This document shows positions 625 to 61,463 of a stretch of DNA of 64,000 nt, in pieces. The stretch's first letter is position 1, and every line of letters starts with the position of its first letter. Below the pieces are notes generated by a model. The model was not told the DNA's origin. It did no database searches and worked only from the letters and a program-made list of their open reading frames with translations. The position numbers and the translations under genes were made by a program. This stretch comes from Phyllosticta citribraziliensis (taxonomy: Eukaryota). Location: positions 1,984,001-2,048,000 of the forward strand of contig NW_027117341.1 of NCBI RefSeq assembly GCF_038025025.1, read 5' to 3'.

Positions 625-2828
625 GGAGGTGCGACTGAACTGGACTGAAAAGGGGGGGAGAGAGAGAGGGTGTGGGTTGTGTGGATATCTTAGCTACAGT
701 TTTAGAAGAGGAGCGGTCCGCGCGAGCGGCAAAAGTTCTTGGTTCACGCGGCGGCAGCAGAAGCAGCAGCAGCAGCGAGGGAGAGAGGGAGGGAGGTTGA
801 AGTGAGGATGGGAGCTGCAGGGCTTGGCTTGGCTTGCCTGGCTGGCTAGGGCTGGTTGGGGCGTCGTGAGTGAAGAAAGAAATGAGCCCTATCCCCCCTG
901 CATACATGCATGCTTTCTGCATGCTTTCTGCACCACCTCTACCACCACCGCTGCCGCCGCCTGCATATCTGCATCTGCATGCAGGGTGGGTGGGTGGGCA
1001 AGGGACTGACGGATGGTGGCAAAGGGACAGACCCGGGAATCGGGCACCTCATCTCATCTCATGTCATATCGTTTCTTCACTGGCGGTCTTGGCGGTGGTG
1101 GGGTGACGGGGAAGTGGGAGATGGGAGAAGTGAGTGAGGACGAGAGAGCGAGCGTGGGTGGGAGTGTGCTGTGTCTGGGCTGGGCGAGAGAGAGAGAGAG
1201 AGAGAGAAGGAAAGGAGGTCTGGAGTGACAAATAGAAAAGATACCCCCCTACCTACATATGTAGCAATCTACAATCTATACAATCTACAAACTTCATCAC
1301 TCTACCTTACTCTACTCTAGTCTTCTTTGTCAGGCCAATCATTGCCACTGCCATCACAGCAATTCAATCCCATGCCGACCTGAGCACTTTCAGGGCACGC
1401 GTGCACTTGCTTCTTCAGGCACGGGGCTTGAAGACGCGCAGGAAGGAACCAGCCTCCTTGCGTCGTCGTCGTCGTGTCGTGTGTAGGTGCAGAAAACATC
1501 GGCACGGCACGGCATGGCATGGGTGGATCGGCGCCGAGGGATGGGAAGTGTGCCTGGATGGGTAGTTGGGTGGGCGAGATGGTGCGTCCTCGCTTGACCT
1601 CTCTTCTCCTAACTTTGCAGATTCCTTGCGATGGGTGGACGCGTCGCGGCACCGCCGCCGTGTGGCATGCAATCACACAACACCCAGACCGTCGTTTCTG
1701 CAGTCTACTAGTCTTCCAGTCTTCCAGTCTTCCCTAAGAAACTAGGGACAGCCTCCACATACTGCATACTGCATGTTCCTTTAGCAGAACTGCCGGCTTT
1801 GTATTCGAGCAGCAGTGCCGAAGCGTAGGTGCGTAGAGGAGGGTTGGCGGGTTGGCGTGCGATGGTGGTGGAGCACTGCCTGTGGTTTTGAGGAAGGTGT
1901 TTTTGTAGATAGGGGGCATGGCATGACCGCATTCTACCGCCCTATGGGCCTTACGCTTCTGATCACTGATGACGGGGGCGAGGTATCAAGGTATGCAGCA
2001 CGGCGCTGGTGGTGGGAGCAGGCTACCTATCCTGTTCTGTTTGGCGGCGACTGGGGCTACGCGCTGTTTTCGGTGCGCGGGCGATCGTCGTCTTGGGTTA
2101 CAAGCCGCAGTATCGTTGGCTGTGCGGACGCGGGGTTGTTGATGCAGGATTAGTGCGAGCGACGGGAGAGCTGGTACTGCGCACTGGGCTGGGCATATAC
2201 TTGAGCTGATGCATGTGTCGTGATTTCTTGATTGTCTATCGTAAGGTGAGAGGAAAGGCAGGAAGGGGAACGGGGTTTGTTGGTGATTGTGAGTAGGACT
2301 ACTCAGTGCAGAAGCCGCAGTGTACATGTATTGTCGTGGTGAAGAAGGCCTATCCACTAAATCCCTCGCAACAAGTCCACCTCATGGCGCGCCCAAAGAG
2401 CAGGGGAAGCACCGGCCTTTTGTTCCGTAAAGCCCTTTCATAACCTCCTTCCCGTTGAGCTTTCTCGATGTCCGATTGTGCCGCGTCTTTTGTCGACGGA
2501 AGAGGTGTCTATGCCGTGTGTTGTCCGGATATCGCGAAGGGTGAATTAAACGTGGTAGAGAGGGTAGCTGGAGATTGGTCAGTTAGGCACGTCAAATGTG
2601 GAAGGGATGTTGAGGGGACTGACCGGCGGGGGGTAGGTGAACTGACCACTGTATGGATTGCGGCCGTCACTTGTCGCTGTACGCCCCTAGCTTGCCGACG
2701 TCGTGATCTGACTGATGGCTGGCGTTTGTGACGGCTTTGGCTGCGCAATTGCTTTGCAAGGCTGCTGGAATGGACGCTCTTTCTGATTGCTTGTGTCCGT
2801 CACTGAGTTGAGAAGTGTACGTGCTGTG

Positions 2829-3290
2829 TCAACGCCTGGCCAAAAGTCTCGCTCCACTGGTCGCCAATCGACCGAAAAGACTCAACACCCGGGTAATGAA
2901 GAACTCGGCTAGAAGACGCACGACCTCCTCCTGTTCTGCAACGTAAGCCTGCCCGCGGTGCTGGATAGTATCATCCTGCCAGAAATAATCGAAATGCTCC
3001 ATCTCAAGGAACTCCTCCAGAGCCTCAGTGAAAACTTCCGGCTCAAGACATTCATCATCGCCCTCGAATGGCTGCCTGCCCCGGTTGGTGAACAGACTGG
3101 CGTAGTGCTCTCTGTCTGGGTCGAAGGTCTCGATGAAGAGGCGCAGTTTGGCCGCCTCGTGAGGGAAGGATTGGGTGAACTTGAGCATGTCGTAGATGTG
3201 GTGGAGCCGATATGCTTTGCGGAGGTGGCGGCACAGATCTTTTTCACCGCTGCGGTAGGCTCTGCGGAGATCGTTCAGAGAAGACGCCAT
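2829..3290 (-). CDS. Orphan family A, copy 1 (153 aa)
   Basis: Intact ORF sharing HLRxAYRLHxIY..FI..FD..PF..DxCL..F..FW with two neighbouring ORFs. Confidence 0.7.
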   Translation of the reverse strand: MASSLNDLRRAYRSGEKDLCRHLRKAYRLHHIYDMLKFTQSFPHEAAKLRLFIETFDPDREHYASLFTNRGRQPFEGDDECLEPEVFTEALEEFLEMEHFDYFWQDDTIQHRGQAYVAEQEEVVRLLAEFFITRVLSLFGRLATSGARLLARR

Positions 3291-3504
3291 GATGGTATTG
3301 GGAGCGTTGGGTTCTCATGATCTGTTGTTGGGGCATTGTTGCATATTTAAGAGGGTCGGGGGTTTGCACGGCTTGCTTGACGGCTTCGTGGAAGCATGGT
3401 TGCGTTTGCTGGAATGAATTGTACAGTCGCTTGGGTTGGTTGTGTTTGTCACTGAGTTGAGATGTGTTGGCGCTGTATGGCCGATTGTCTCGCTCAGCGC
3501 GTCA

Positions 3505-4041
3505 TCAACCGCGGCGCGAGCGGTGGCGTCTGCGACCACGGCTGTGGCCAACGCTGCGGCTACGGCTGCGGCTAGGGCTGCTGCTCCTGAGACCCTGAAA
3601 GGACTGAAAGAGCTTGAGGACGAAGCTGAAGCCAGTGCGGAGAACGCGGGCCGCCAAAAGCTTCGCATGCCTCTCCTGGCGCCCAACGCAAAGCCGCTTG
3701 CGATGCCGAACATTATCATGACGCCAGAAGTCCTCGAAGTCCTCGAGGTTCAGGAAGGCGTCCAGGGCCGCGCGGAACTTGTCCGGGTCCAGGCACTCGT
3801 CATCCCAGTAGAAGGGAAACCAGCCGCGTCGGTTGGTGAAGAGATGGTCGTAAAATTCCTCGTTTGGATCGAAGGAGTGGATGAAGAGATCCAGAGCGGC
3901 GGCGTTGGCAGGGAAAGTTTGAGTGAACTTGAGCATGTCGTAGATGCCGTGGAGACGGTACGCTCGGCGGATGTGATGCTGCAGGTCTTCTCCCTTGCCG
4001 GAGTAGTAGCTTCGGAAGTCGATGGGAGGAGAGGACGACAT
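3505..4041 (-). CDS. Orphan family A, copy 2
   Basis: MSSSPPIDFRSYYSGKGEDLQHHIRRAYRLHGIYDMLKFTQTFP, closely similar to copy 1, including upstream non-coding motifs. Confidence 0.7.
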   Translation of the reverse strand: MSSSPPIDFRSYYSGKGEDLQHHIRRAYRLHGIYDMLKFTQTFPANAAALDLFIHSFDPNEEFYDHLFTNRRGWFPFYWDDECLDPDKFRAALDAFLNLEDFEDFWRHDNVRHRKRLCVGRQERHAKLLAARVLRTGFSFVLKLFQSFQGLRSSSPSRSRSRSVGHSRGRRRHRSRRG

Positions 4042-54298: not shown

Positions 54299-54902
54299 GA
54301 TGGTAAAGTGGGATGCGGAACTTGCGTGCGTGTAGCTGAGAGAGAAGATCTTGCCTTTGGTGTTGCGGAACTTCTCTAAGGATTAGTCGTTTCTCGGCAC
54401 TGCTGGAGATTCTGGGTCGACAGGTCCAATCGAACCAAGTACATTCAGCTGGTGAGCGACAGAGAACCATTGTAAAAATTCAGGGCAAATTTCGACTGGA
54501 TTTCGAACGCATGATCGCAATATTCCATAGCTCTTGAATCATGAATGCAGCTTTGATTCAATCTTGGAATGCTTCTTGTGGGCTGGGTGTGCTTGTATCG
54601 GCGTTTGCTTACATCGTCGTGGAGATATCTAGAAGTAAGTCGGCCTGTCCTCCCACCTCCAACACGAAACACGCACCACAAACGCACCTCTCCCCTCCCA
54701 TCCCAATTCAAGCCCCATCAATCCATCTTGTCTCAGCTCGATCTACTTCAAGCTTCCTCTTCCTGTCATTCGAGTCGTGCCTTCGCGCTCTGTCGTTTCC
54801 GTCGCCGTTTCGGCGCACGGGATCTGGCGCTCGCAGACCAAACCGGTGAGTCAACTCCAAGTTTGCGACCAAGCCGCGTCGCACTCTCTCTTCCCTTTCC
54901 CC

Positions 54903-55055
54903 ATGACGAGACCTTGGCAGAACAGAATCGAGTCCTTCTCTCGGTCCTGCGATTGCGCATCGCTGAAGCCGCCTCGTGCTGGTTTCACGGTCGCGCAATC
55001 GCCAGTTCAACCAGAGATTGCGACGCTGCGAACAACCCAAGCTACAACCATCTGA
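54903..55055 (+). ncRNA. Box C/D RNA, intron 1 (long, internal hairpin)
   Basis: Intron 54846-55135; C ATGACGA 54903, D' CAGA 54923, D CTGA 55052, branch 55112. Confidence 0.65.
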
Positions 55056-55279
55056 GCCTTTCATCCTTACATGGCCGTCCAGTATGTCATTTTTCCTTCA
55101 AGTTCCCCTTTGCTGACTTGTTTCCTCCCGAGCAGACTTAGCGGCGCGCGTTTCTTCCGTGTGCGGCGGCTTTTGGCTTGGTGACTCTCACCTCCCAGCC
55201 AGACTTTTGGCACGCCCTGCATCTTACAATCCCATCTCAGTAAGTTTGTCCCCATCTCAACACTCTTCCCTTTACGGGC

Positions 55280-55343
55280 GTGATGACCACATTTAAATTT
55301 GCACGACCGTGAGGGTGCACCCAATGATCGTCGATCCTCCTGA
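55280..55343 (+). ncRNA. Box C/D RNA, intron 2
   Basis: Intron 55240-55415; C GTGATGA 55280, D 55340, branch 55391. Confidence 0.75.
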
Positions 55344-55589
55344 TCCCCTTGCCTTTCCTCGCCGAACTCTCCCACCTTCACCGTACCAACGCTAACCTTT
55401 TCAATATCCCAAAAGGTTCATGTGCCGAAGCCTTTGTATTTCGCGTCGCATCGCCTGTTGGCAGAGATCCTCTGGGCCCTTTCGAGGCCGCACACAATAT
55501 GGACAAGACATTCCCTGGAGCAACATCGAGCAATTTCCGGTCTCCCTTTGAAAGGCTTTGTAAGTCCTTGTCGCTTTGCCGACCTCCAC

Positions 55590-55647
55590 ATGATGACCGT
55601 ACTATTTTCAAGAGCGGCGTTGCCGCGTGGCTACACACAATCTCTGA
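55590..55647 (+). ncRNA. Box C/D RNA, intron 3
   Basis: Intron 55560-55706; C ATGATGA 55590, D 55644, branch 55695. Confidence 0.75.
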
Positions 55648-55793
55648 GCCATCACATCTCGTCTTCCGCACTCGTCCCACATCTTAAACACCGCGCTGAT
55701 TCTCAGACAGATTTCGATACTCGAGCAACGCCCACGCAGGCAGCACCAGTAAGTCCGCACTGTCGCTCCGCGATCAACCGCAACGACCTTTGC

Positions 55794-55858
55794 ATGATGA
55801 AGCCACAGAAGTTCATGGACATGAGCAGTTTTGCCACTGATTCAACCAACCTTACTGA
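55794..55858 (+). ncRNA. Box C/D RNA, intron 4
   Basis: Intron 55749-55924; C 55794, D 55855 (alternative CTGA at 55837). Confidence 0.7.
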
Positions 55859-56046
55859 TTTCCGCCCTCTCGTTTGTTTTTCCTCGAGCTTTAGCGCACA
55901 TGCTTAACTTTTGTGATTTGGTAGACACCGTATCTCGAAGCAGGCATCAGAGCGCAATGCATCTTGGCCTCCACCTCTACCTGCTTTCATTCAATGCAGC
56001 AAAGATAACCCAAATAAGTTTTGTTCCCTTTTTCCATTTCAGATAC

Positions 56047-56112
56047 CTGATGACGCAGAAAGCAAGAATTTGAGAGGTCCCGCCGGCCGAATGTAAAAAG
56101 CACCACGTCTGA
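56047..56112 (+). ncRNA. Box C/D RNA, intron 5 (donor reads ATAAGT)
   Basis: C TGATGA 56048, D 56109, branch GCTAAC 56159, CAG 56183. Confidence 0.6.
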
Positions 56113-56267
56113 TCCACCTCCCCTATTCCACTGTCTTGTTATGAATACAAGAAAAATGGCTAACACAAACCGTACGTCGACAGGGCTGCCTTCAACGGAA
56201 GGCTTCTGACAAGTCACCAGACAATCAGTGAGTGCACTGATTCCCCGCTTTCCCCTTTCCATCGATC

Positions 56268-56318
56268 GTGACGACAGCTTTGGGTTGATACACGTGATTC
56301 TCCTCTTCCTTCTTCTGA
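56268..56318 (+). ncRNA. Box C/D RNA, intron 6 (short)
   Basis: Intron 56228-56386; C GTGACGA 56268, D 56315, branch 56365. Confidence 0.65.
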
Positions 56319-56563
56319 CATCTACACTTCGCTTTTCATTTCGAAGCCCATGGTACAAACTTCCGCTGATTCATTGTGCCCTGCAGAACTGCACCGCCGG
56401 TCAGTCACTCCCCTCCTATCTCAGCCCCGACTAGCCGACCATGGCGCATGATTTCGTCTTGGATATCTCGGCCATCCTGAACGGACACAATTTCCTCTAA
56501 GGCGCGCCTGGTAAATCCATGCGACAGGTAAGTCCATACACATACCACATCCACCAGTATCCT

Positions 56564-56629
56564 GTGATGAACCAATCAAGCATGCAAATGAGTGGCTTGA
56601 ACGAGCACATGACTTTACAAAACATCTGA
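56564..56629 (+). ncRNA. Box C/D RNA, intron 8
   Basis: Donor 56528; C GTGATGA 56564, D 56626, branch 56676. Confidence 0.78.
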
Positions 56630-56773
56630 CATACTCCTCCTCCCGTCTTGGTCCTCTTGCACCTTGAAAGCAATGGCTGACATTCCTCGTGTAAGGACAG
56701 CACACTTTTCAGGCTCTCATTCGGACGAATTCGGTACGTCATCCCAGCGTTTTACTTTTTTTTTCCCTTGCAA

Positions 56774-56843
56774 ATGATGAACGACTTTTCGGTGTGGAGC
56801 GCAAGTTATTTGCTGCGTGAACACACACAGTTTCCTTTTCTGA
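56774..56843 (+). ncRNA. Box C/D RNA, intron 9
   Basis: Intron 56734-56921; C 56774, D 56840, branch 56900. Confidence 0.75.
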
Positions 56844-56981
56844 TTCGCAGGATCGATTGCTGTCTATCTACATGGTTGCTTTTTGAGCACATTCCGGTCG
56901 CTGACTTCTCCCATTGAACAGGAAGATCATGCTCCTCCGTGTCCGTAAGTTCCTGCACCCTTCTCTTCCCTGCCGTACACC

Positions 56982-57065
56982 ATGATGATCAAATCTCTAA
57001 CGAGAAGTGGGCACTGTCCGCTCCAAGACTGATTACACATGTTTTTATCTATTTTGCCGAACTGA
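56982..57065 (+). ncRNA. Box C/D snoRNA, intron 10; candidate 25S rRNA guide
   Basis: Intron 56945-57127; ATCTATTTTGCCGA before box D is antisense to 25S UCGGCAAAAUAGAU. Confidence 0.88.
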
Positions 57066-57194
57066 TTGATCCAACCCAATTCACCTTGTTTGATTTTCAG
57101 AAATTTGCGGACGCTGACTTCTCACAGTTGATACTGCGAACTCCCTTTCGTGCAACAGTAAGTTTCCTACCCTTCCTACTCCCTGCCCTACTCC

Positions 57195-57280
57195 ATGATG
57201 ATCCAAATCTATCTTACATGAAGTGGACGCTGTCCGCTACAAGATCGATTAGATGCGTTTTATCTATTTTGCCGAACTGA
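57195..57280 (+). ncRNA. Box C/D snoRNA, intron 11; paralog of intron 10 RNA
   Basis: Intron 57158-57340; same 14-nt antisense element at 57262-57275. Confidence 0.88.
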
Positions 57281-57593
57281 TTCATTCTACCCTCTGTCTA
57301 TTCTGGCTCGCTGTTGCGCATTGCCGACGCTAACTCCCAGTCGACAGGATTACTCTTTCATATTCGCATACTTAACACGCAGGGATGGTGCTTCCCTCAA
57401 AACTCCAACGCGCCGGTAAGCTCTCTTCCCCGTATACTCGCGAGTATCCTCGCTAGTCCTTACATTTTAAAGCACCCGACGCTTCACAGGCTTCCGCAGC
57501 GCTTCTTTTGCACCACCGCCACGAAAGTGCCTCCAAATATGGCTGATATCAACGCAAGTAAGTGGCAACTCCCCCCACACACTTCCCCTTTGA

Positions 57594-57667
57594 ATGATGA
57601 GCCGTGTCGTCATGCTTTTGAGGTCGGGCTTTTCTACTCGATCGACGAGATTCCCACACACTTCTGA
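57594..57667 (+). ncRNA. Box C/D RNA, intron 13
   Basis: Intron 57558-57729; C 57594, D 57664, branch 57717. Confidence 0.78.
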
Positions 57668-57810
57668 TTTCATCAATTGCTTTCTTTACCTTTCTACACA
57701 CATGTTTTTTGCAGGAGCTGACATTCCAGACTGAGGCAGTGCTTGCTTGGCCCACACAATACGATTCCCGCATGTGAGTGACCAATCCCCTCCTCGCGCC
57801 ATTATTGCAA

Positions 57811-57882
57811 GTGATGAGTCCCTGATGTTGTTCTGAGGTCGAGGTTTGCTTCCTGATCGAAGATGTCATCTAACCGTTCTGA
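57811..57882 (+). ncRNA. Box C/D RNA, intron 14
   Basis: Intron 57774-57951; C 57811, D' 57833, D 57879, branch 57931. Confidence 0.8.
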
Positions 57883-58024
57883 CTGTTTTTGCAACCCTCC
57901 CGTTTCTTTGCATTTAGGTTCCTGGCGATAGCTAACATTCTGTTGAACTAGAGAGCCCCTCGTACAATCCTGAGAATCAACGCAGGTAAGCTGTGCTCCT
58001 CACCTGCTTCCCTTTGCCCGGTAC

Positions 58025-58073
58025 ATGATGATTGAAACTCGCGGAGAGAATGACGACATTTTCGGCCTTCTGA
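58025..58073 (+). ncRNA. Box C/D RNA, intron 15 (49 nt)
   Basis: Intron 57986-58141; C 58025, C' ATGACGA, D 58070, branch 58121. Confidence 0.72.
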
Positions 58074-58201
58074 TTGCCTTTCCTCCTGCTCTATTTGTTT
58101 CAGCTACTTCATTCTGACCCGCTGACGCTGTTTTGTTCTAGGAATCGTTTGTAGCGAAGCGCGTAAGTATTTCCCTCCCCAGTTCCCTATCTACCCTTCC
58201 T

Positions 58202-58290
58202 GTGATGTCAAATTCTTGCAGAAGTCGACGTTGTGGGCTTAACGGCCTGCCCTGTCGACGCATGATCTGGACTACACTCATTCCATCTGA
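58202..58290 (+). ncRNA. Box C/D RNA, intron 16
   Basis: Intron 58163-58355; C GTGATGT, D' CAGA, GTCGAC stem, C' ATGATCT, D 58287; 10 nt (ACTCATTCCA) antisense to 18S UGGAAUGAGU. Confidence 0.72.
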
Positions 58291-58432
58291 TGCTCTTTGC
58301 CACTACTCGATTCATCTCGAACGTTGCTTCCATCCCGAGGTAACGGAAAATTCAGATCACGTTACGATTGACGCGAATTCGAGTTCCCACCGGTAAGTCT
58401 CCCCTGTCTTCATCTCTGTTTCCCACCCTCGT

Positions 58433-58498
58433 ATGATGATCCAATCTCTTTGACTGCCGATTTTGTCGGCTGTATGACTACTTAGAATGATTTTCTGA
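58433..58498 (+). ncRNA. Box C/D RNA, intron 17
   Basis: Intron 58393-58574; C 58433, GCCGA/TCGGC hairpin, D 58495. Confidence 0.8.
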
Positions 58499-58644
58499 TT
58501 CCTTTCCGTCTTTTTCGAATCTTGCTGTTCTCCGGCTTTCGCGAAGAATCCAAGCTGATGTTGCGCCACCGCAGATACTGTCATCGATCGGTACTCGCGA
58601 AACACAACAAAGGTCAGTCTTGCCACTCTTTTGTTCGCCCTGAC

Positions 58645-58709
58645 ATGACGAGAAAATATATATGGAGGCCGACACGCGCGGCCACGTGACGCTTTAGTAG
58701 TTTTTCTGA
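58645..58709 (+). ncRNA. Box C/D RNA, intron 18
   Basis: Intron 58613-58783; C ATGACGA 58645, C' GTGACG, D 58706. Confidence 0.72.
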
Positions 58710-58851
58710 CACGCCTTCTGTTTCCTCTGGATTGAGTGCATGTCCAGACCTTCCTTTGACTGACTTCGATCTCTGGTGGACAGCACCGTCTTCAACTCAA
58801 TGCATTCCATGCTGGTGAGTCTTCCGCTACTCCTTCTCCATTCTCCCTGAC

Positions 58852-58925
58852 ATGATGAACAAACTTTTCCGACTGTTGACACCGTCGGCTGTGTGGACAC
58901 ACAACTATTGCATATGACTATCTGA
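58852..58925 (+). ncRNA. Box C/D snoRNA, intron 19; candidate 18S 5'-end guide
   Basis: Intron 58815-58995; GCATATGACTA before box D is antisense to 18S UAGUCAUAUGC. Confidence 0.85.
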
Positions 58926-59063
58926 GTTCTCTTTCCTTCGCTTGCAATCCGCTCTGAACATCTAGAAAATTCTTACTAAGCCCGTGCATATCCAGGAAGC
59001 AACTTTCATGGTCGTTCGTCCAAGTAAGTCCTCCATTCTCCCCCTTCTTGCCTTTTTCCTCAG

Positions 59064-59129
59064 ATGATGACCATGACCAAGTCGAGGCCGACTTCGTCGG
59101 TCCATGGAGCACTTGGATGCGGCATCTGA
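59064..59129 (+). ncRNA. Box C/D RNA, intron 20
   Basis: Intron 59024-59196; C 59064, GGCCGAC/GTCGGTC hairpin, D 59126. Confidence 0.8.
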
Positions 59130-59263
59130 TCCGTCTAAATTCTTCTCCACTCCTCCGAAGACCGCATGGGCACCGGCTGACGACCGGCATACTTAGTTCA
59201 AGTCACCCTCACTGTGATCACATTCAAGTAAGATTAGCGCCCAAATCTTCCTGTCGCTCCTTA

Positions 59264-59354
59264 ATGATTACAACCTACCACTTCTGAGTTCGACGATGTC
59301 TATCCATGAAAAACACTTTGTTACCTAACATTGTGTTCCCTTGCACGTCACTGA
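59264..59354 (+). ncRNA. Box C/D RNA, intron 21; candidate 25S guide
   Basis: Intron 59228-59424; C ATGATTA, D' 59284, D 59351; TTGCACGTCA antisense to 25S UGACGUGCAA. Confidence 0.72.
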
Positions 59355-59533
59355 TTCAAGCAACACCGAGATATTCAGTCAGCCCCGCGGGAGTAGGACT
59401 ACTGCTAACATTTGGTGCTACCAGGCAGGTCTGCTCCATTCCTTTGCTCAGCCAAGAAACTTGATGAAGCCGTTGCCGAAATGAGTAAGTTACTTCGTCC
59501 CCTCATCCTTCCAATGCCTTCCACAACATATTC

Positions 59534-59604
59534 CTGATGATGTCAGATTGGAAGAGAACTGAACGACTGGCTCGACCAGCTGTTGATGCACACACTTTTT
59601 CTGA
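59534..59604 (+). ncRNA. Box C/D RNA, intron 22 (shared-scaffold subfamily)
   Basis: Intron 59485-59674; C 59535, D' 59559, D 59601. Confidence 0.82.
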
Positions 59605-59732
59605 TCCCGTTTTATCCTTACACTACCACCAATGAATCTTCCACCTTGACAACTGCTAACAATTTGATGAATAGATGCGGCAAGCAGCTTTTTACGTACG
59701 TTGTTCGGCCCGTCCATTCCTTTCCCCTCCGC

Positions 59733-59807
59733 ATGATGGATACATACATTGGGAAAAAGTTCTGAACGACTGGACTGCAGCCGTTGACGTATACCTTTCA
59801 TTTCTGA
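59733..59807 (+). ncRNA. Box C/D RNA, intron 23 (shared-scaffold subfamily)
   Basis: Intron 59696-59867; C ATGATGG, D' 59762, D 59804. Confidence 0.8.
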
Positions 59808-59986
59808 CACTAGCCACATTTTCCCACCTCCAAATCCGTGAAATTCATTGCCGCTGACGCATGACAGGACCAGAATAGCTTCAGTTGCCCTCAAATCGCA
59901 TTTTCGGCGAACAAACAGCCTTTCAAGTAAGTTGTTATGGCCTTCCGCCAACAAAGCTCTCAACCATTAATTACCACAACCCTCGA

Positions 59987-60063
59987 ATGATGATGATATA
60001 TTAAGCTCAGGAAACTGAACGACTGGCTTGACCAGCCGTTGACGTACATACGCACACTTCTGA
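59987..60063 (+). ncRNA. Box C/D RNA, intron 24 (shared-scaffold subfamily)
   Basis: Intron 59927-60128; C 59987, D' 60015, D 60060. Confidence 0.83.
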
Positions 60064-60260
60064 GCCCCATTGCTTCTGCCCCTACCTCACTCCCGAGTCT
60101 TCTGTATTGCACTGGCTGACGCAAATAGCCAACCATGTACAGATGCTCCGCAAAAACTGTCCTCTTGTCCATTCGGACGCTTCCATGCCAGGAGTTGTGC
60201 GGAAGACAGCCTTGCAACCGTAGTAAGTCGCCCTGCCCCCTTGTTCTCTTTCACCCCTTC

Positions 60261-60335
60261 ATGACGATACTCCCAAACAGTTCAGTGATCTGAACGACTG
60301 GCCTGACCAGCCGTTGACGCCAAACCCATATCTGA
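60261..60335 (+). ncRNA. Box C/D RNA, intron 25 (shared-scaffold subfamily)
   Basis: Intron 60223-60404; C ATGACGA, D' 60290, D 60332. Confidence 0.8.
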
Positions 60336-60765
60336 CCCCGCGCACCGCTCTTCTATCCATCGCAAGGTGCCGAGTTGAAGACGGCTGACGCGCAATACAT
60401 CTAGACGTGCCCTCTCAACCCCTGAGCAAGCCGGCCCAACCCCATTTTCTGCAACTACTTGTCCAGCAGGGGAAAGAGTAGCCGCTCCCATCTGCAGGTC
60501 AGTCTGCACGAAGCCGTCATCGCCAGAGCAGCCGACTGAGCCCTGATTGTCGAGACGCGCGAAGCCGACCGGCGCGGCCTGCTGCTTGGTGTTGTTACAC
60601 AGAAAAGCCGATATCTCTCCAGCCCGTCGAGCTGCGAAGCAGATACGCGCTCTGTTAACAACAACCACGCAGTAAAGAAAAGGGTTGGGCATTCCGTCTG
60701 TTTGCACATTTCGTTTTGACAGGTACGCCGCCTCTCCTCCGTCTCCTCTGCTCCAGAGCGCGCAC

Positions 60766-60844
60766 ATGATGGAAAACTCGAACCCATGGCTTGCATGAGT
60801 ACCGAATCTGACTGTCCGGTCATGACTACACAACTCGCGTCTGA
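60766..60844 (+). ncRNA. Box C/D RNA, intron 27
   Basis: Intron 60723-60924; C ATGATGG, D' ATGA 60795, C' ATGACTA, D 60841. Confidence 0.77.
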
Positions 60845-61007
60845 GCGCTCTCTCCTTTCCTTTCTCCATCATCTGGGACTCCCCCTCGCGGAACCGATCG
60901 CTAACGCACAAAACGCACGTATAGGCTACACTCCGCGCGGGAGAAGCCATTTCGTTGTAAGTGTGTCCACACCCTACCCTCCTATCCTTCGCTCCCTGGG
61001 CGCATGC

Positions 61008-61084
61008 ATGATGAGACACGCACGCATGGCTTACATGAGTCCTGGATTTGACCGTCCAGTGGTGACTAAGATATTAGCGTCTGA
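61008..61084 (+). ncRNA. Box C/D RNA, intron 28; paralog of intron 27 RNA
   Basis: Intron 60957-61161; C 61008, D' ATGA 61035, D 61081; GCATGGCTTA antisense to 18S UAAGCCAUGC. Confidence 0.82.
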
Positions 61085-61463
61085 GCTTTTTGCGCCCCGA
61101 ATCTTCTTTCGCTTGAGTCTCGTTTGTTGCGCGTTGGCTAATTCATGGAACTGGTGGGCAGGTCGGCGGTGGGTGTCGGGCTAGGGCGTCAGGGCGGTGC
61201 CGCGGTGCTGTGTTGGATGAATCAAACTGCCGTGTTTTTCAGGGTTGCGTGGCGTTGTGGTGACTTTGGATAGGCAGGATACGTTGAGGCGTGGAACAAG
61301 TGTGCGATAGCACTGAACGACGAAAGAAAATGGTTGACAGGCAGAGAAAACTCCACCCGGGTCCTGATTTCTCAAATGATGGCCCGAAAGATGCAAACCC
61401 AGACCCTCGTATCCCAAACGCCTTGAAACGCCTCAAATACAAATCGAGCCCGAGCACAGCGCC

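What the first reader, a model, noticed from the sequence alone, without database searches (positions are those of the whole stretch)
56982..57280. Duplicated pair keeps a perfect 14-nt guide to 25S rRNA
Seen: both RNAs end TTTTATCTATTTTGCCGAA-CTGA while their other parts have diverged. Established (from memory): fungal 25S contains GAAGUCGGCAAAAUAGAUCC. The D+5 rule predicts methylation of the second G in UCGGC, about G1906 in S. cerevisiae numbering, which I do not know as a yeast Nm site. This is the best evidence that the array yields true methylation guides.
Basis: partly seen in the sequence, partly recalled or inferred. Interest (0 to 1): 0.7.

Follow-up and report, generated by a model that had tools for sequence, protein, structure and literature searches.

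The report
Duplicated fungal snoRNA pair targeting 25S
Two neighbouring intron-encoded box C/D small nucleolar RNA genes keep an identical guide that fits a highly conserved stretch of large-subunit ribosomal RNA, so they most likely direct a ribose methylation that is not in the yeast, human or plant catalogues; this is an ordinary kind of gene with a possibly new target.

Summary
Two 84- and 86-nt box C/D snoRNA-like units (56982-57065 and 57195-57280) lie in consecutive short introns. They arose by a tandem duplication of about 213 bp. Identity is 68% outside one block. That block, 23 nt of guide plus D box, is identical in both copies.

The 14-nt guide is perfectly complementary to UCGGCAAAAUAGAU. 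This sequence occurs in 31 of the 117 metagenome loci fetched with it, all in LSU rDNA context, and in a published Candida/Phialophora 25S primer. The duplex ends 1 nt from box D, so the D+5 rule selects the second G of UCGGC.

It is the only guide of 13 bp or more among 64 CTGA sites in the array. None of 220 control CTGA sites exceeded 12 bp.

No guide for this G appears in the N. crassa or A. fumigatus catalogue tables. No Nm is listed there in a plant/human/yeast/archaea table. Rfam has no match.

Expression, methylation and the species' own rRNA could not be tested. Verdict: a real, probably functional methylation guide. It is a new member of a known kind and of modest interest.

The parts
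55240..61140 (+). Host gene: long array of intron-encoded box C/D snoRNA-like units, probably non-coding. It contains the pair.
   Evidence: A regex for 5' splice site, C box, CTGA and branch site finds 18 distinct units on the + strand in this interval and 0 on the - strand of the whole window. Further units were seen by eye at 56049, 58025, 58852, 59735 and 60767. No unspliced ATG ORF on the + strand inside the array exceeds 132 aa; a 190-aa ORF at 54569..55141 ends upstream of it.
56945..57127 (+). Intron hosting copy 1: GTAAGT 5' splice site, CTGAC branch site at 57114-57118, CAG 3' splice site.
   Evidence: Read from the sequence. Box D ends 62 nt before the 3' splice site.
56982..57065 (+). 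Copy 1, box C/D snoRNA-like RNA, 84 nt from C box to D box.
56982..56988 (+). Box C of copy 1 (AUGAUGA).
   Evidence: Identical in both copies.
57002..57005 (+). Putative degenerate box D' of copy 1 (GAGA), directly 5' of the internal hairpin.
   Evidence: Inferred from the position of the hairpin and from the D'-hairpin-C' layout of other units in the array.
57006..57022 (+). Internal 7-bp hairpin of copy 1.
   Evidence: Present in both the MFE and the centroid structure. The same hairpin forms in copy 2.
57029..57035 (+). Putative box C' of copy 1 (CUGAUUA). Its first four bases could alternatively be read as a D' box CUGA.
   Evidence: Sequence. Which reading is right is inferred, not shown.
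57047..57060 (+). 14-nt antisense element of copy 1 (AUCUAUUUUGCCGA), complementary to LSU rRNA.
57062..57065 (+). Box D of copy 1 (CUGA).
57128..57157 (+). 30-nt exon between the two snoRNA introns.
   Evidence: Splice-site reading of the sequence. Not confirmed by RNA data.
57158..57347 (+). Intron hosting copy 2: GTAAGT 5' splice site, CTAAC branch site at 57330-57334, 3' AG at 57340 or 57347.
   Evidence: Read from the sequence. The choice of 3' splice site is ambiguous.
57195..57280 (+). Copy 2, box C/D snoRNA-like RNA, 86 nt. Features: C box 57195-57201; putative D' AUGA 57218-57221; hairpin 57222-57238; putative C' UCGAUUA 57245-57251; D box 57277-57280.
57262..57275 (+). 14-nt antisense element of copy 2, identical to that of copy 1.
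58433..58498 (+). Probable third, distant paralogue. It shares the C box plus the following 10 nt and the hairpin layout, but lacks the LSU guide.
   Evidence: Repeat family D5, 94% over 17 nt. Three-way alignment.

Best explanation
The two units are tandemly duplicated, intron-encoded box C/D snoRNA genes inside a long host transcript that is probably non-coding.

Inferred from the known biology of intronic snoRNAs: each RNA is released from its spliced intron, trimmed to the C/D core and assembled with the Snu13/Nop56/Nop58/fibrillarin proteins.

Shown from sequence: the 14 nt just upstream of box D pair with the LSU rRNA segment UCGGCAAAAUAGAU.

Inferred: this places the second G of UCGGC (about G1906 in yeast numbering, a recalled offset) in the methyltransferase site, so it becomes 2'-O-methylated. 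The segment lies in the H61-H62 area near the subunit interface. That placement is inferred from the C. thermophilum paper's remark on nucleotides around 1900.

Both copies keep the guide under purifying selection. The 5' antisense region has drifted and has no convincing target.
For: 1. Canonical boxes in both copies: AUGAUGA and CUGA, 84 and 86 nt apart.

2. Canonical intron placement: about 37 nt after a GTAAGT 5' splice site and 60-68 nt before the 3' splice site. The pair sits in an array of at least 18 such units on one strand, with 0 on the other strand.

3. The guide forms 14 perfect pairs with the three LSU references used (15 with L035). It ends 1 nt from box D, so D+5 falls inside the duplex on a G.

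4. Controls: 0 of 22 CTGA sites on the array's minus strand reached the scan threshold. In the rest of the window 6 hits at 5 of the 198 CTGA sites reached it, all of 11-12 bp. None reached 13 bp.

5. A 23-nt block identical between copies that are 68% identical elsewhere. P = 0.006 for such a run anywhere and 1.6e-4 at this exact place. The substitution spectrum, 17 transitions to 15 transversions plus indels, is not RIP-like.

6. The target is deeply conserved: it lies in LSU context in 31 of the 117 loci fetched with the 14-mer, and in C. albicans and Phialophora 25S/28S.

7. Both copies fold the same internal hairpin, and a G-to-A change keeps pairing (G-U becomes A-U). This gives a standard layout of C, guide, D', hairpin, C', guide, D.
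Against: 1. There is no canonical terminal stem. The 6 nt 5' of box C (TACACC / TACTCC) do not pair with the 6 nt 3' of box D (TTGATC / TTCATT). Whole-RNA folding is no better than for shuffles, with z-scores of -0.33 and -0.79.

2. The C' and D' boxes are degenerate and their assignment is inferred.

3. Under a looser ungapped score that tolerates mismatches, 7 of 390 shuffled snoRNA sequences reached a score of 14 or more somewhere against the three LSU references. The complementarity score alone is therefore not overwhelming. The case rests on the match being contiguous, next to the box and kept in both copies.

4. No guide for this G is listed in the N. crassa or A. fumigatus tables. No Nm is listed there for plants, human, yeast or archaea. 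The site therefore has no precedent that I could read.

5. The other units of the array show no match of 11 bp or more to my rRNA references, apart from one 12-bp background-level hit at 58922. Those references are incomplete. Part of the array may be decaying.

6. The LSU references are unnamed metagenome contigs, not this species' own rRNA.
Confidence: 0.7

Rival explanations
1. The RNAs are made and pair with LSU pre-rRNA, but act as folding or processing chaperones, or as accessory base-pairing partners, without methylating the G.
For: The site is absent from every Nm list I could read. Some box C/D snoRNAs are known to act without methylating, for example the pre-rRNA processing role of U14 listed as 'Cleavage' in N. 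crassa Table 1.
Against: The duplex has the exact geometry of a methylation guide: it is contiguous, has no mismatch around D+5 and ends 1 nt from box D. Nothing in the sequence points to a processing role.
Confidence: 0.08
2. One or both copies are unexpressed or decaying duplicates in a fast-duplicating array, and the guide is a relic of a recently lost function.
For: The array holds several paralogue families whose guides have diverged: 59534/59735/59987/60261 and 60767/61008. Apart from one background-level 12-bp hit at 58922, the other units lack a match of 11 bp or more to my references. The pair has no terminal stem. In copy 2 the internal CTGA has become TCGA.
Against: The guide plus box D is the one segment kept perfectly identical while the flanks fell to 34-80% identity. 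Both C boxes are also intact. That is the signature of selection on both copies.
Confidence: 0.12
3. The real target is another RNA (snRNA, tRNA, mRNA or a different rRNA site), and the LSU match is secondary.
For: The block conserved between copies extends 4-5 T beyond the 14 nt that pair with LSU. I had no snRNA, tRNA or fungal 18S sequences to scan.
Against: No match of 11 bp or more for the pair in six SSU references, most of them plant-like, or elsewhere in three LSU references. A perfect 14-bp box-adjacent match was not seen at any of 220 control sites.
Confidence: 0.05
4. Chance complementarity combined with a short gene-conversion tract that homogenised the 3' ends of two duplicated introns.
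For: A short AT-rich guide. Under loose scoring, 7 of 390 shuffles reached 14 or more.
Against: A perfect 14-mer twice in the window against 0.01 expected. The position is exactly at box D. A conversion tract of only about 25-35 nt would be unusually short, and the flanks on both sides are strongly diverged.
Confidence: 0.03

Closest known systems
Intron-encoded box C/D snoRNA clusters in non-coding 'UHG-like' host genes of Neurospora crassa (Liu et al. 2009, PMC2780460; Table 1 and Results read)
   Same: One snoRNA per short intron. The host has only short ORFs. snoRNA sizes are 70-125 nt. C and D boxes are canonical, while C' and D' are degenerate. Duplicated isoforms exist there too (CD46A/B).
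   Different: None of the 55 N. crassa snoRNAs is listed with a target at this G. Its neighbours are Am1845, Am1859, Um1866 and Gm1907. The array here is far longer, with 18 units by regex and about 23-25 by eye. Apart from the pair and one background-level 12-bp hit, none of its units matched my rRNA references at 11 bp or more.
snR62 / U34 / Nc CD22 (guide for LSU Um1888 in yeast, Um1866 in N. crassa)
   Same: A box C/D guide acting on the same LSU segment, about 18 nt upstream of the G predicted here (the offset is recalled).
   Different: Different nucleotide and different antisense element. The pair's duplex covers only UCGGCAAAAUAGAU (L015 positions 1879-1892 counted from the Rfam model start) and does not reach that U. 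No Rfam family matched the pair.
U50 / Nc CD16 (guide listed for N. crassa 26S Gm1907)
   Same: Guides a G methylation a few tens of nucleotides downstream in the same conserved LSU stretch.
   Different: The target lies about 21-23 nt further 3'. CD16 is 122 nt and also carries the snR190-type guide. No sequence relation was tested, because I had no CD16 sequence.
Lineage-specific box C/D targets catalogued in 'The fungal snoRNAome' (Canzler et al. 2018, PMC5824354; sections on target conservation read)
   Same: The same phenomenon: Pezizomycotina snoRNAs with additional D- or D'-box targets on conserved rRNA that are unmodified in yeast.
   Different: The main text names no target near this position. 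The family-by-family tables are in supplements that could not be opened, so membership in one of its 68 C/D families is not excluded.

Membership tests
Box C/D methylation-guide snoRNA | Box C (RUGAUGA) near the 5' end and box D (CUGA) near the 3' end | tested here: met
   AUGAUGA at 56982 and 57195. CUGA at 57062 and 57277. Lengths 84 and 86 nt.
Box C/D methylation-guide snoRNA | Antisense element of 10 nt or more immediately upstream of box D or D', with the target nucleotide paired to the 5th position | tested here: met
   14 perfect pairs with LSU (15 with L035), ending 1 nt from box D. D+5 falls on the second G of UCGGC.
Box C/D methylation-guide snoRNA | Short 5'/3' terminal stem bringing boxes C and D together | tested here: not met
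   Flanks TACACC/TTGATC and TACTCC/TTCATT are not complementary. The MFE folds pair part of box C itself with the 3' flank instead. From general knowledge, this stem is weak or absent in many eukaryotic intronic snoRNAs, so the failure lowers confidence but does not exclude membership.
Box C/D methylation-guide snoRNA | Internal C'/D' pair | tested here: inconclusive
   Only degenerate candidates: GAGA/AUGA as D' and CUGAUUA/UCGAUUA as C'. They flank a hairpin shared by both copies.
Box C/D methylation-guide snoRNA | Stable expression as an RNA of about 85 nt bound by fibrillarin/Nop56/Nop58/Snu13 | not testable with these tools
   No RNA run was listed for this stretch, so no reads could be laid.
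Box C/D methylation-guide snoRNA | 2'-O-methylation present at the predicted nucleotide and dependent on the guide | not testable with these tools
   Needs RiboMeth-seq or primer extension. The C. thermophilum site list that might show it is in tables I could not read.
Intronic snoRNA (one per intron, exonucleolytic release) | Location in a spliceosomal intron at a suitable distance from the splice and branch sites | tested here: met
   GTAAGT lies 37 nt upstream of box C. Box D ends about 50 nt before the CTGAC/CTAAC branch motifs and 60-68 nt before the 3' AG. Splicing itself was not verified with RNA.
Any Rfam snoRNA family (release 15) | Covariance-model match at or near the gathering score | tested here: not met
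   0 matches in the window at gathering thresholds. At E up to 10 over 55700-58800 there were 2 weak hits, neither on the pair.
snR62/U34 family | Antisense element covering the U equivalent to yeast Um1888 | tested here: not met
   The only LSU duplex of 11 bp or more shared by both copies covers the 14-mer, 15-28 nt downstream of that U. A further 11-bp hit for copy 1 and an 11-bp hit with one G-U for copy 2 lie elsewhere in the LSU and are not shared. The position of Um1888 relative to the 14-mer is recalled.

The most novel reading that the evidence does not exclude
The pair defines an uncatalogued box C/D family. It installs a lineage-specific Gm in the H61-H62 region of LSU rRNA, at a G that is unmodified in yeast, human and Arabidopsis. 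It is the one selectively retained product of a 'nursery' of about 23-25 tandemly duplicating intronic snoRNA units, most of which have lost or are changing their guides. If so, the locus is a live example of birth-and-death evolution of rRNA modification guides.
Probability: 0.4. Interest if true: 0.5.

Novelty: new member of a known kind. Interest (0 to 1): 0.35.

Why it matters
If the G is methylated, this adds a new rRNA 2'-O-methylation site in a universally conserved LSU segment near the subunit interface, with its guide, to the fungal catalogue. It also gives a clean genetic handle, two small introns, for testing what that modification does.

The pair is also the best anchor for judging whether the very long snoRNA array around it makes functional guides or mostly decaying duplicates.

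It does not change how box C/D guides are understood. Lineage-specific sites and duplicated guides are well documented in fungi (PMC5824354, PMC2780460).

Tried and rejected
1. Own genome or rRNA. No whole genome is held for this window, and the records behind loci L035 and L015 are not held. The species' own 25S and 18S could therefore not be read.

2. Expression. No RNA holder was listed for 55700-58800, so no reads could be laid.

3. Rfam. Nothing at gathering thresholds. At E up to 10 there were only two irrelevant weak hits.

4. Homologous snoRNAs elsewhere. 0 of the 117 metagenome loci containing the 14-mer have snoRNA-like context. Earlier-findings look-ups returned nothing.

5. RIP as the cause of divergence, which would spare an AT-rich block. 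Rejected: 15 of the 32 substitutions are transversions, and there are indels.

6. The conserved internal CTGTCCGCT read as a D' guide. Copy 1's TGTCCGCTCCA matches TGGAGCGGACA in L073 and L017. The ascomycete-like L015 and L105 have TGGTACGGACA, which gives two mismatches, and copy 2 has a further mismatch. The block is better explained as one strand of the hairpin shared by both copies.

7. The 5' antisense region. Copy 2 pairs over 11 bp (one G-U) with L015 748-758, but copy 1 does not keep this. No target is assigned.

8. Targets for the other units. These were scanned against three LSU references and up to six SSU references obtained as eukaryotic rDNA contigs inside prokaryote assemblies. 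Only 10-12-bp hits appeared, at background frequency. The SSU references are mostly plant-like, and the ascomycete-like LSU covers only its first 2225 nt, so absence of a match is weak evidence.

9. Literature.
- Sequence-string search: 18 papers hold the rRNA-sense string (mostly the CA-INT-L primer); none holds the guide-sense string.
- 'Gm1905-1908 / Gm1884 / Gm1886' search: 3 papers, none relevant to this site.
- 'G1906 + snoRNA' search: 14 papers, 10 listed, none relevant by title.
- 'RiboMeth-seq + filamentous fung' search: 0 papers.
- Two searches for Thermomyces/Neurospora ribosome modifications gave nothing usable.
The family tables of PMC5824354 and the site tables of PMC12723226, which may bear directly on novelty, were therefore not seen.

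Full report
**What is there**

Window 56982-57280 holds two box C/D snoRNA-like units.
- Copy 1 runs from AUGAUGA at 56982 to CUGA at 57062-57065 (84 nt).
- Copy 2 runs from AUGAUGA at 57195 to CUGA at 57277-57280 (86 nt).

Each sits in its own short intron.
- Copy 1: GTAAGT at 56945, CTGAC branch motif at 57114-57118, CAG ending at 57127.
- Copy 2: GTAAGT at 57158, CTAAC at 57330-57334, AG at 57340 or 57347.

The introns are separated by a 30-nt exon (57128-57157). Box D ends 60-68 nt before the 3' splice site. These splice sites are read from the sequence only and are not confirmed by RNA.

**The duplication**

The repeat finder gives four collinear repeat families spaced 213-216 bp apart. 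They include the 3' tail of the preceding intron (56870-56913 against 57083-57126, 73% identity). The event was therefore a tandem duplication of a unit of about 213 bp: intron tail, exon, intron head and snoRNA.

A pairwise alignment shows 78% mean column identity. By segment:
- 5' intron part: 70%.
- Box C: 100%.
- Box C to hairpin region: 80%.
- Spacer before the block: 50%.
- The 23-nt block TTTTATCTATTTTGCCGAACTGA: 100%.
- After box D: 34%.

Outside the block the copies are 68% identical, with 17 transitions, 15 transversions and 6 gap columns. This mixed spectrum rules out RIP-type mutation, which might have spared an AT-rich stretch by default.

Simulation gives P = 0.006 for an identical run of 23 or more anywhere in the alignment, and 1.6e-4 for this particular place.

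**The target**

The reverse complement of the 14-nt core (57047-57060 and 57262-57275) occurs twice in the window, against 0.01 expected.

- 31 have LSU rRNA context (GGAA[G/T] before the 14-mer).
- 0 look like a snoRNA gene.

Four of these loci were checked with Rfam, and all are RF02543, eukaryotic LSU rRNA.

Independently, the published C. albicans 25S primer CA-INT-L contains the sequence. The same primer is used on the 28S of the Pezizomycotina fungus Phialophora verrucosa (PMC3112068, primer-table passage seen). In that paper's numbering the predicted G is 1894.

The species' own 25S could not be read, because no genome is held and no sequencing runs were listed. Given this conservation its presence is very likely, but it is inferred.

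**Geometry**

The duplex uses guide positions -2 to -15 upstream of box D. With locus L035, which has U instead of G before UCGGC, it uses -1 to -15. Position -5 is a C paired with the second G of UCGGC. This is what the D+5 rule requires.

The yeast number 'about G1906' rests on my recollection that yeast Um1888 lies 18 nt upstream. A U does sit at -18 in L015, but no tool result verifies the number.

**Specificity**

I scanned every CTGA in the array (64 sites, 55200-61200) for a box-adjacent duplex against three LSU and three SSU references, the latter with about 700 nt of downstream sequence each. Only the pair (14-15 perfect pairs) and one other site passed: 58922, with 12 bp including one G-U, to the 5' end of SSU.

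Controls:
- 22 CTGA sites on the array's minus strand gave 0 hits.
- The 198 CTGA sites in the rest of the window gave 6 hits at 5 sites, all of 11-12 bp.

A result against my reading: with a looser ungapped score that tolerates mismatches, 7 of 390 shuffled snoRNA sequences reached 14 or more somewhere along their length. The argument therefore rests on the match being contiguous, next to the box and preserved in both copies, not on the score alone.

**Internal anatomy**

Both copies fold the same 7-bp hairpin (57006-57022 and 57222-57238). One G-to-A difference turns a G-U pair into an A-U pair.

Other units of the array show a clear layout of D', hairpin, C'. By analogy I read the pair as follows:
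- box C
- 5' antisense region
- degenerate D' (GAGA / AUGA)
- hairpin
- degenerate C' (CUGAUUA / UCGAUUA)
- 26-nt spacer including the guide
- box D

This explains the conserved CTGTCCGCT as hairpin. I had first considered it a D' guide, because of an 11-nt match to TGGAGCGGACA in L073 and L017. The ascomycete-like L015 and L105 have two mismatches there.

The 5' antisense region differs between the copies and has no convincing target.

There is no canonical terminal stem, and overall folding is no better than for shuffles. These are the main anatomical weaknesses.

**Surroundings**

The pair is part of a much longer array.
- A regex for 5' splice site, C box, CTGA and branch site finds 18 distinct units on the + strand between 55240 and 61140.
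- It finds none on the - strand of the whole window.
- More units are visible by eye, giving about 23-25 in all.
- No + strand ORF inside the array exceeds 132 aa unspliced; a 190-aa ORF at 54569..55141 ends just upstream of it. This fits a non-coding host.

Further paralogue families exist: 59534/59735/59987/60261 and 60767/61008. The unit at 58433 aligns as a distant third relative of the pair that lacks the LSU guide.

None of the other units matched my references at 11 bp or more, except the background-level hit above. The references are imperfect. There is no fungal 18S, since the SSU references are mostly plant-like contigs found inside prokaryote assemblies. The ascomycete-like LSU covers only its first 2225 nt.

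**Comparison with what is known**

- Rfam 15 has no match.
- N. crassa Table 1 lists LSU sites Am1845, Am1859, Um1866 (equivalent to yeast Um1888) and Gm1907 in this region. It lists none at the predicted G, which is about 1884 by the recalled offset (PMC2780460, table read).
- A. fumigatus Table 1 lists none either (PMC2377427, passage seen).
- The cross-species Nm table in PMC11542601 has no entry between Arabidopsis Um1892 (human Um2837, yeast Um1888) and Arabidopsis Um2114 (passage seen).
- The main text of 'The fungal snoRNAome' names no target here (sections read and searched).
- No paper in the searchable library contains the guide-sense 14-mer.

The closest relevant data set is the C. 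thermophilum rRNA modification map, which reports 53 LSU Nm from RiboMethSeq and 2.4 A cryo-EM. [quoted passage not shown] Its site list is only in a table and supplements that I could not see.

**Verdict**

The pair is most likely (0.7) a redundant pair of genuine methylation guides for a G in a universally conserved LSU segment. It is a new member of a well-known kind. The predicted site is unprecedented in the catalogues I could read, but it may already be present in unread tables. Interest is modest. The larger array, with its many apparently orphan and duplicating units, is the more unusual feature.

Noticed in passing
window 55240-61140 (+): A very long array of intron-encoded box C/D snoRNA-like units: 18 by regex, about 23-25 by eye, all on one strand. 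[quoted passage not shown] Apart from the pair and one background-level 12-bp hit, none of the units matches my (imperfect) rRNA references at 11 bp or more.
   Followed up: partly
window 59534-59604, 59735-59807, 59987-60063, 60261-60335 (+): A four-member paralogue family sharing a CTGA-ACGACTGG...CCAGC-(C/T)GTTGA core (D', hairpin, C'). The antisense regions on both sides are completely different. This is the opposite pattern to the pair, where the guide is what is kept.
   Followed up: no
window 60767-60845 and 61008-61084 (+): Another duplicated pair of C/D-like units sharing CATGGCTT(G/A)CATGAGT after the 5' region and ending GCGTCTGA.
   Followed up: no
window 58433-58498 (+): This unit shares box C plus the next 10 nt with the pair (94% over 17 nt). 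Its hairpin contains a 12-nt stretch (2 G-U) complementary to the same LSU segment (AGTCGGCAAAAT), but it lies next to a C'-like motif, not a D box. It is probably a diverged paralogue, and the match may be a relic or chance.
   Followed up: partly
window 58852-58925 (+): The D-box guide GCATATGACTAT pairs over 12 bp (one G-U) with the extreme 5' end of SSU rRNA (GTAGTCATATGC) in all three SSU references, predicting Um at position 24. This is close to, but not at, the Am28-type site listed for N. crassa CD21. Hits of this length occur at background rate in the controls.
   Followed up: partly
window 56774-56843 (+): An internal GTGA-adjacent element pairs over 10 bp (one G-U) with GTAGCAAATA in all three LSU references. 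By recollection, the predicted C is the U24-type target (N. crassa Cm1418 / yeast Cm1437). The match is weak and unverified.
   Followed up: no
window 56049-56113 (+): A C/D-like unit (cTGATGA ... CTGA) with no recognisable GTAAGT 5' splice site upstream. It may be exon-encoded, as N. crassa CD6 is, or lie in an intron with a non-canonical 5' splice site.
   Followed up: no
loci L128, L152, L159, L163, L167 (genome contigs): Complete plant-like 18S-ITS-LSU rDNA contigs sit inside assemblies labelled as bacteria (Halostreptopolyspora, Chelativorans, Collinsella MAGs, Loigolactobacillus). This looks like eukaryotic contamination of prokaryote genome records.
   Followed up: no
locus L053: This metagenome contig carries LSU rRNA on the + strand (93-2566) joined to LSU on the - strand (2460-4014). 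It is probably an assembly chimera or inverted repeat, and it also has small deletions in conserved stretches.
   Followed up: no
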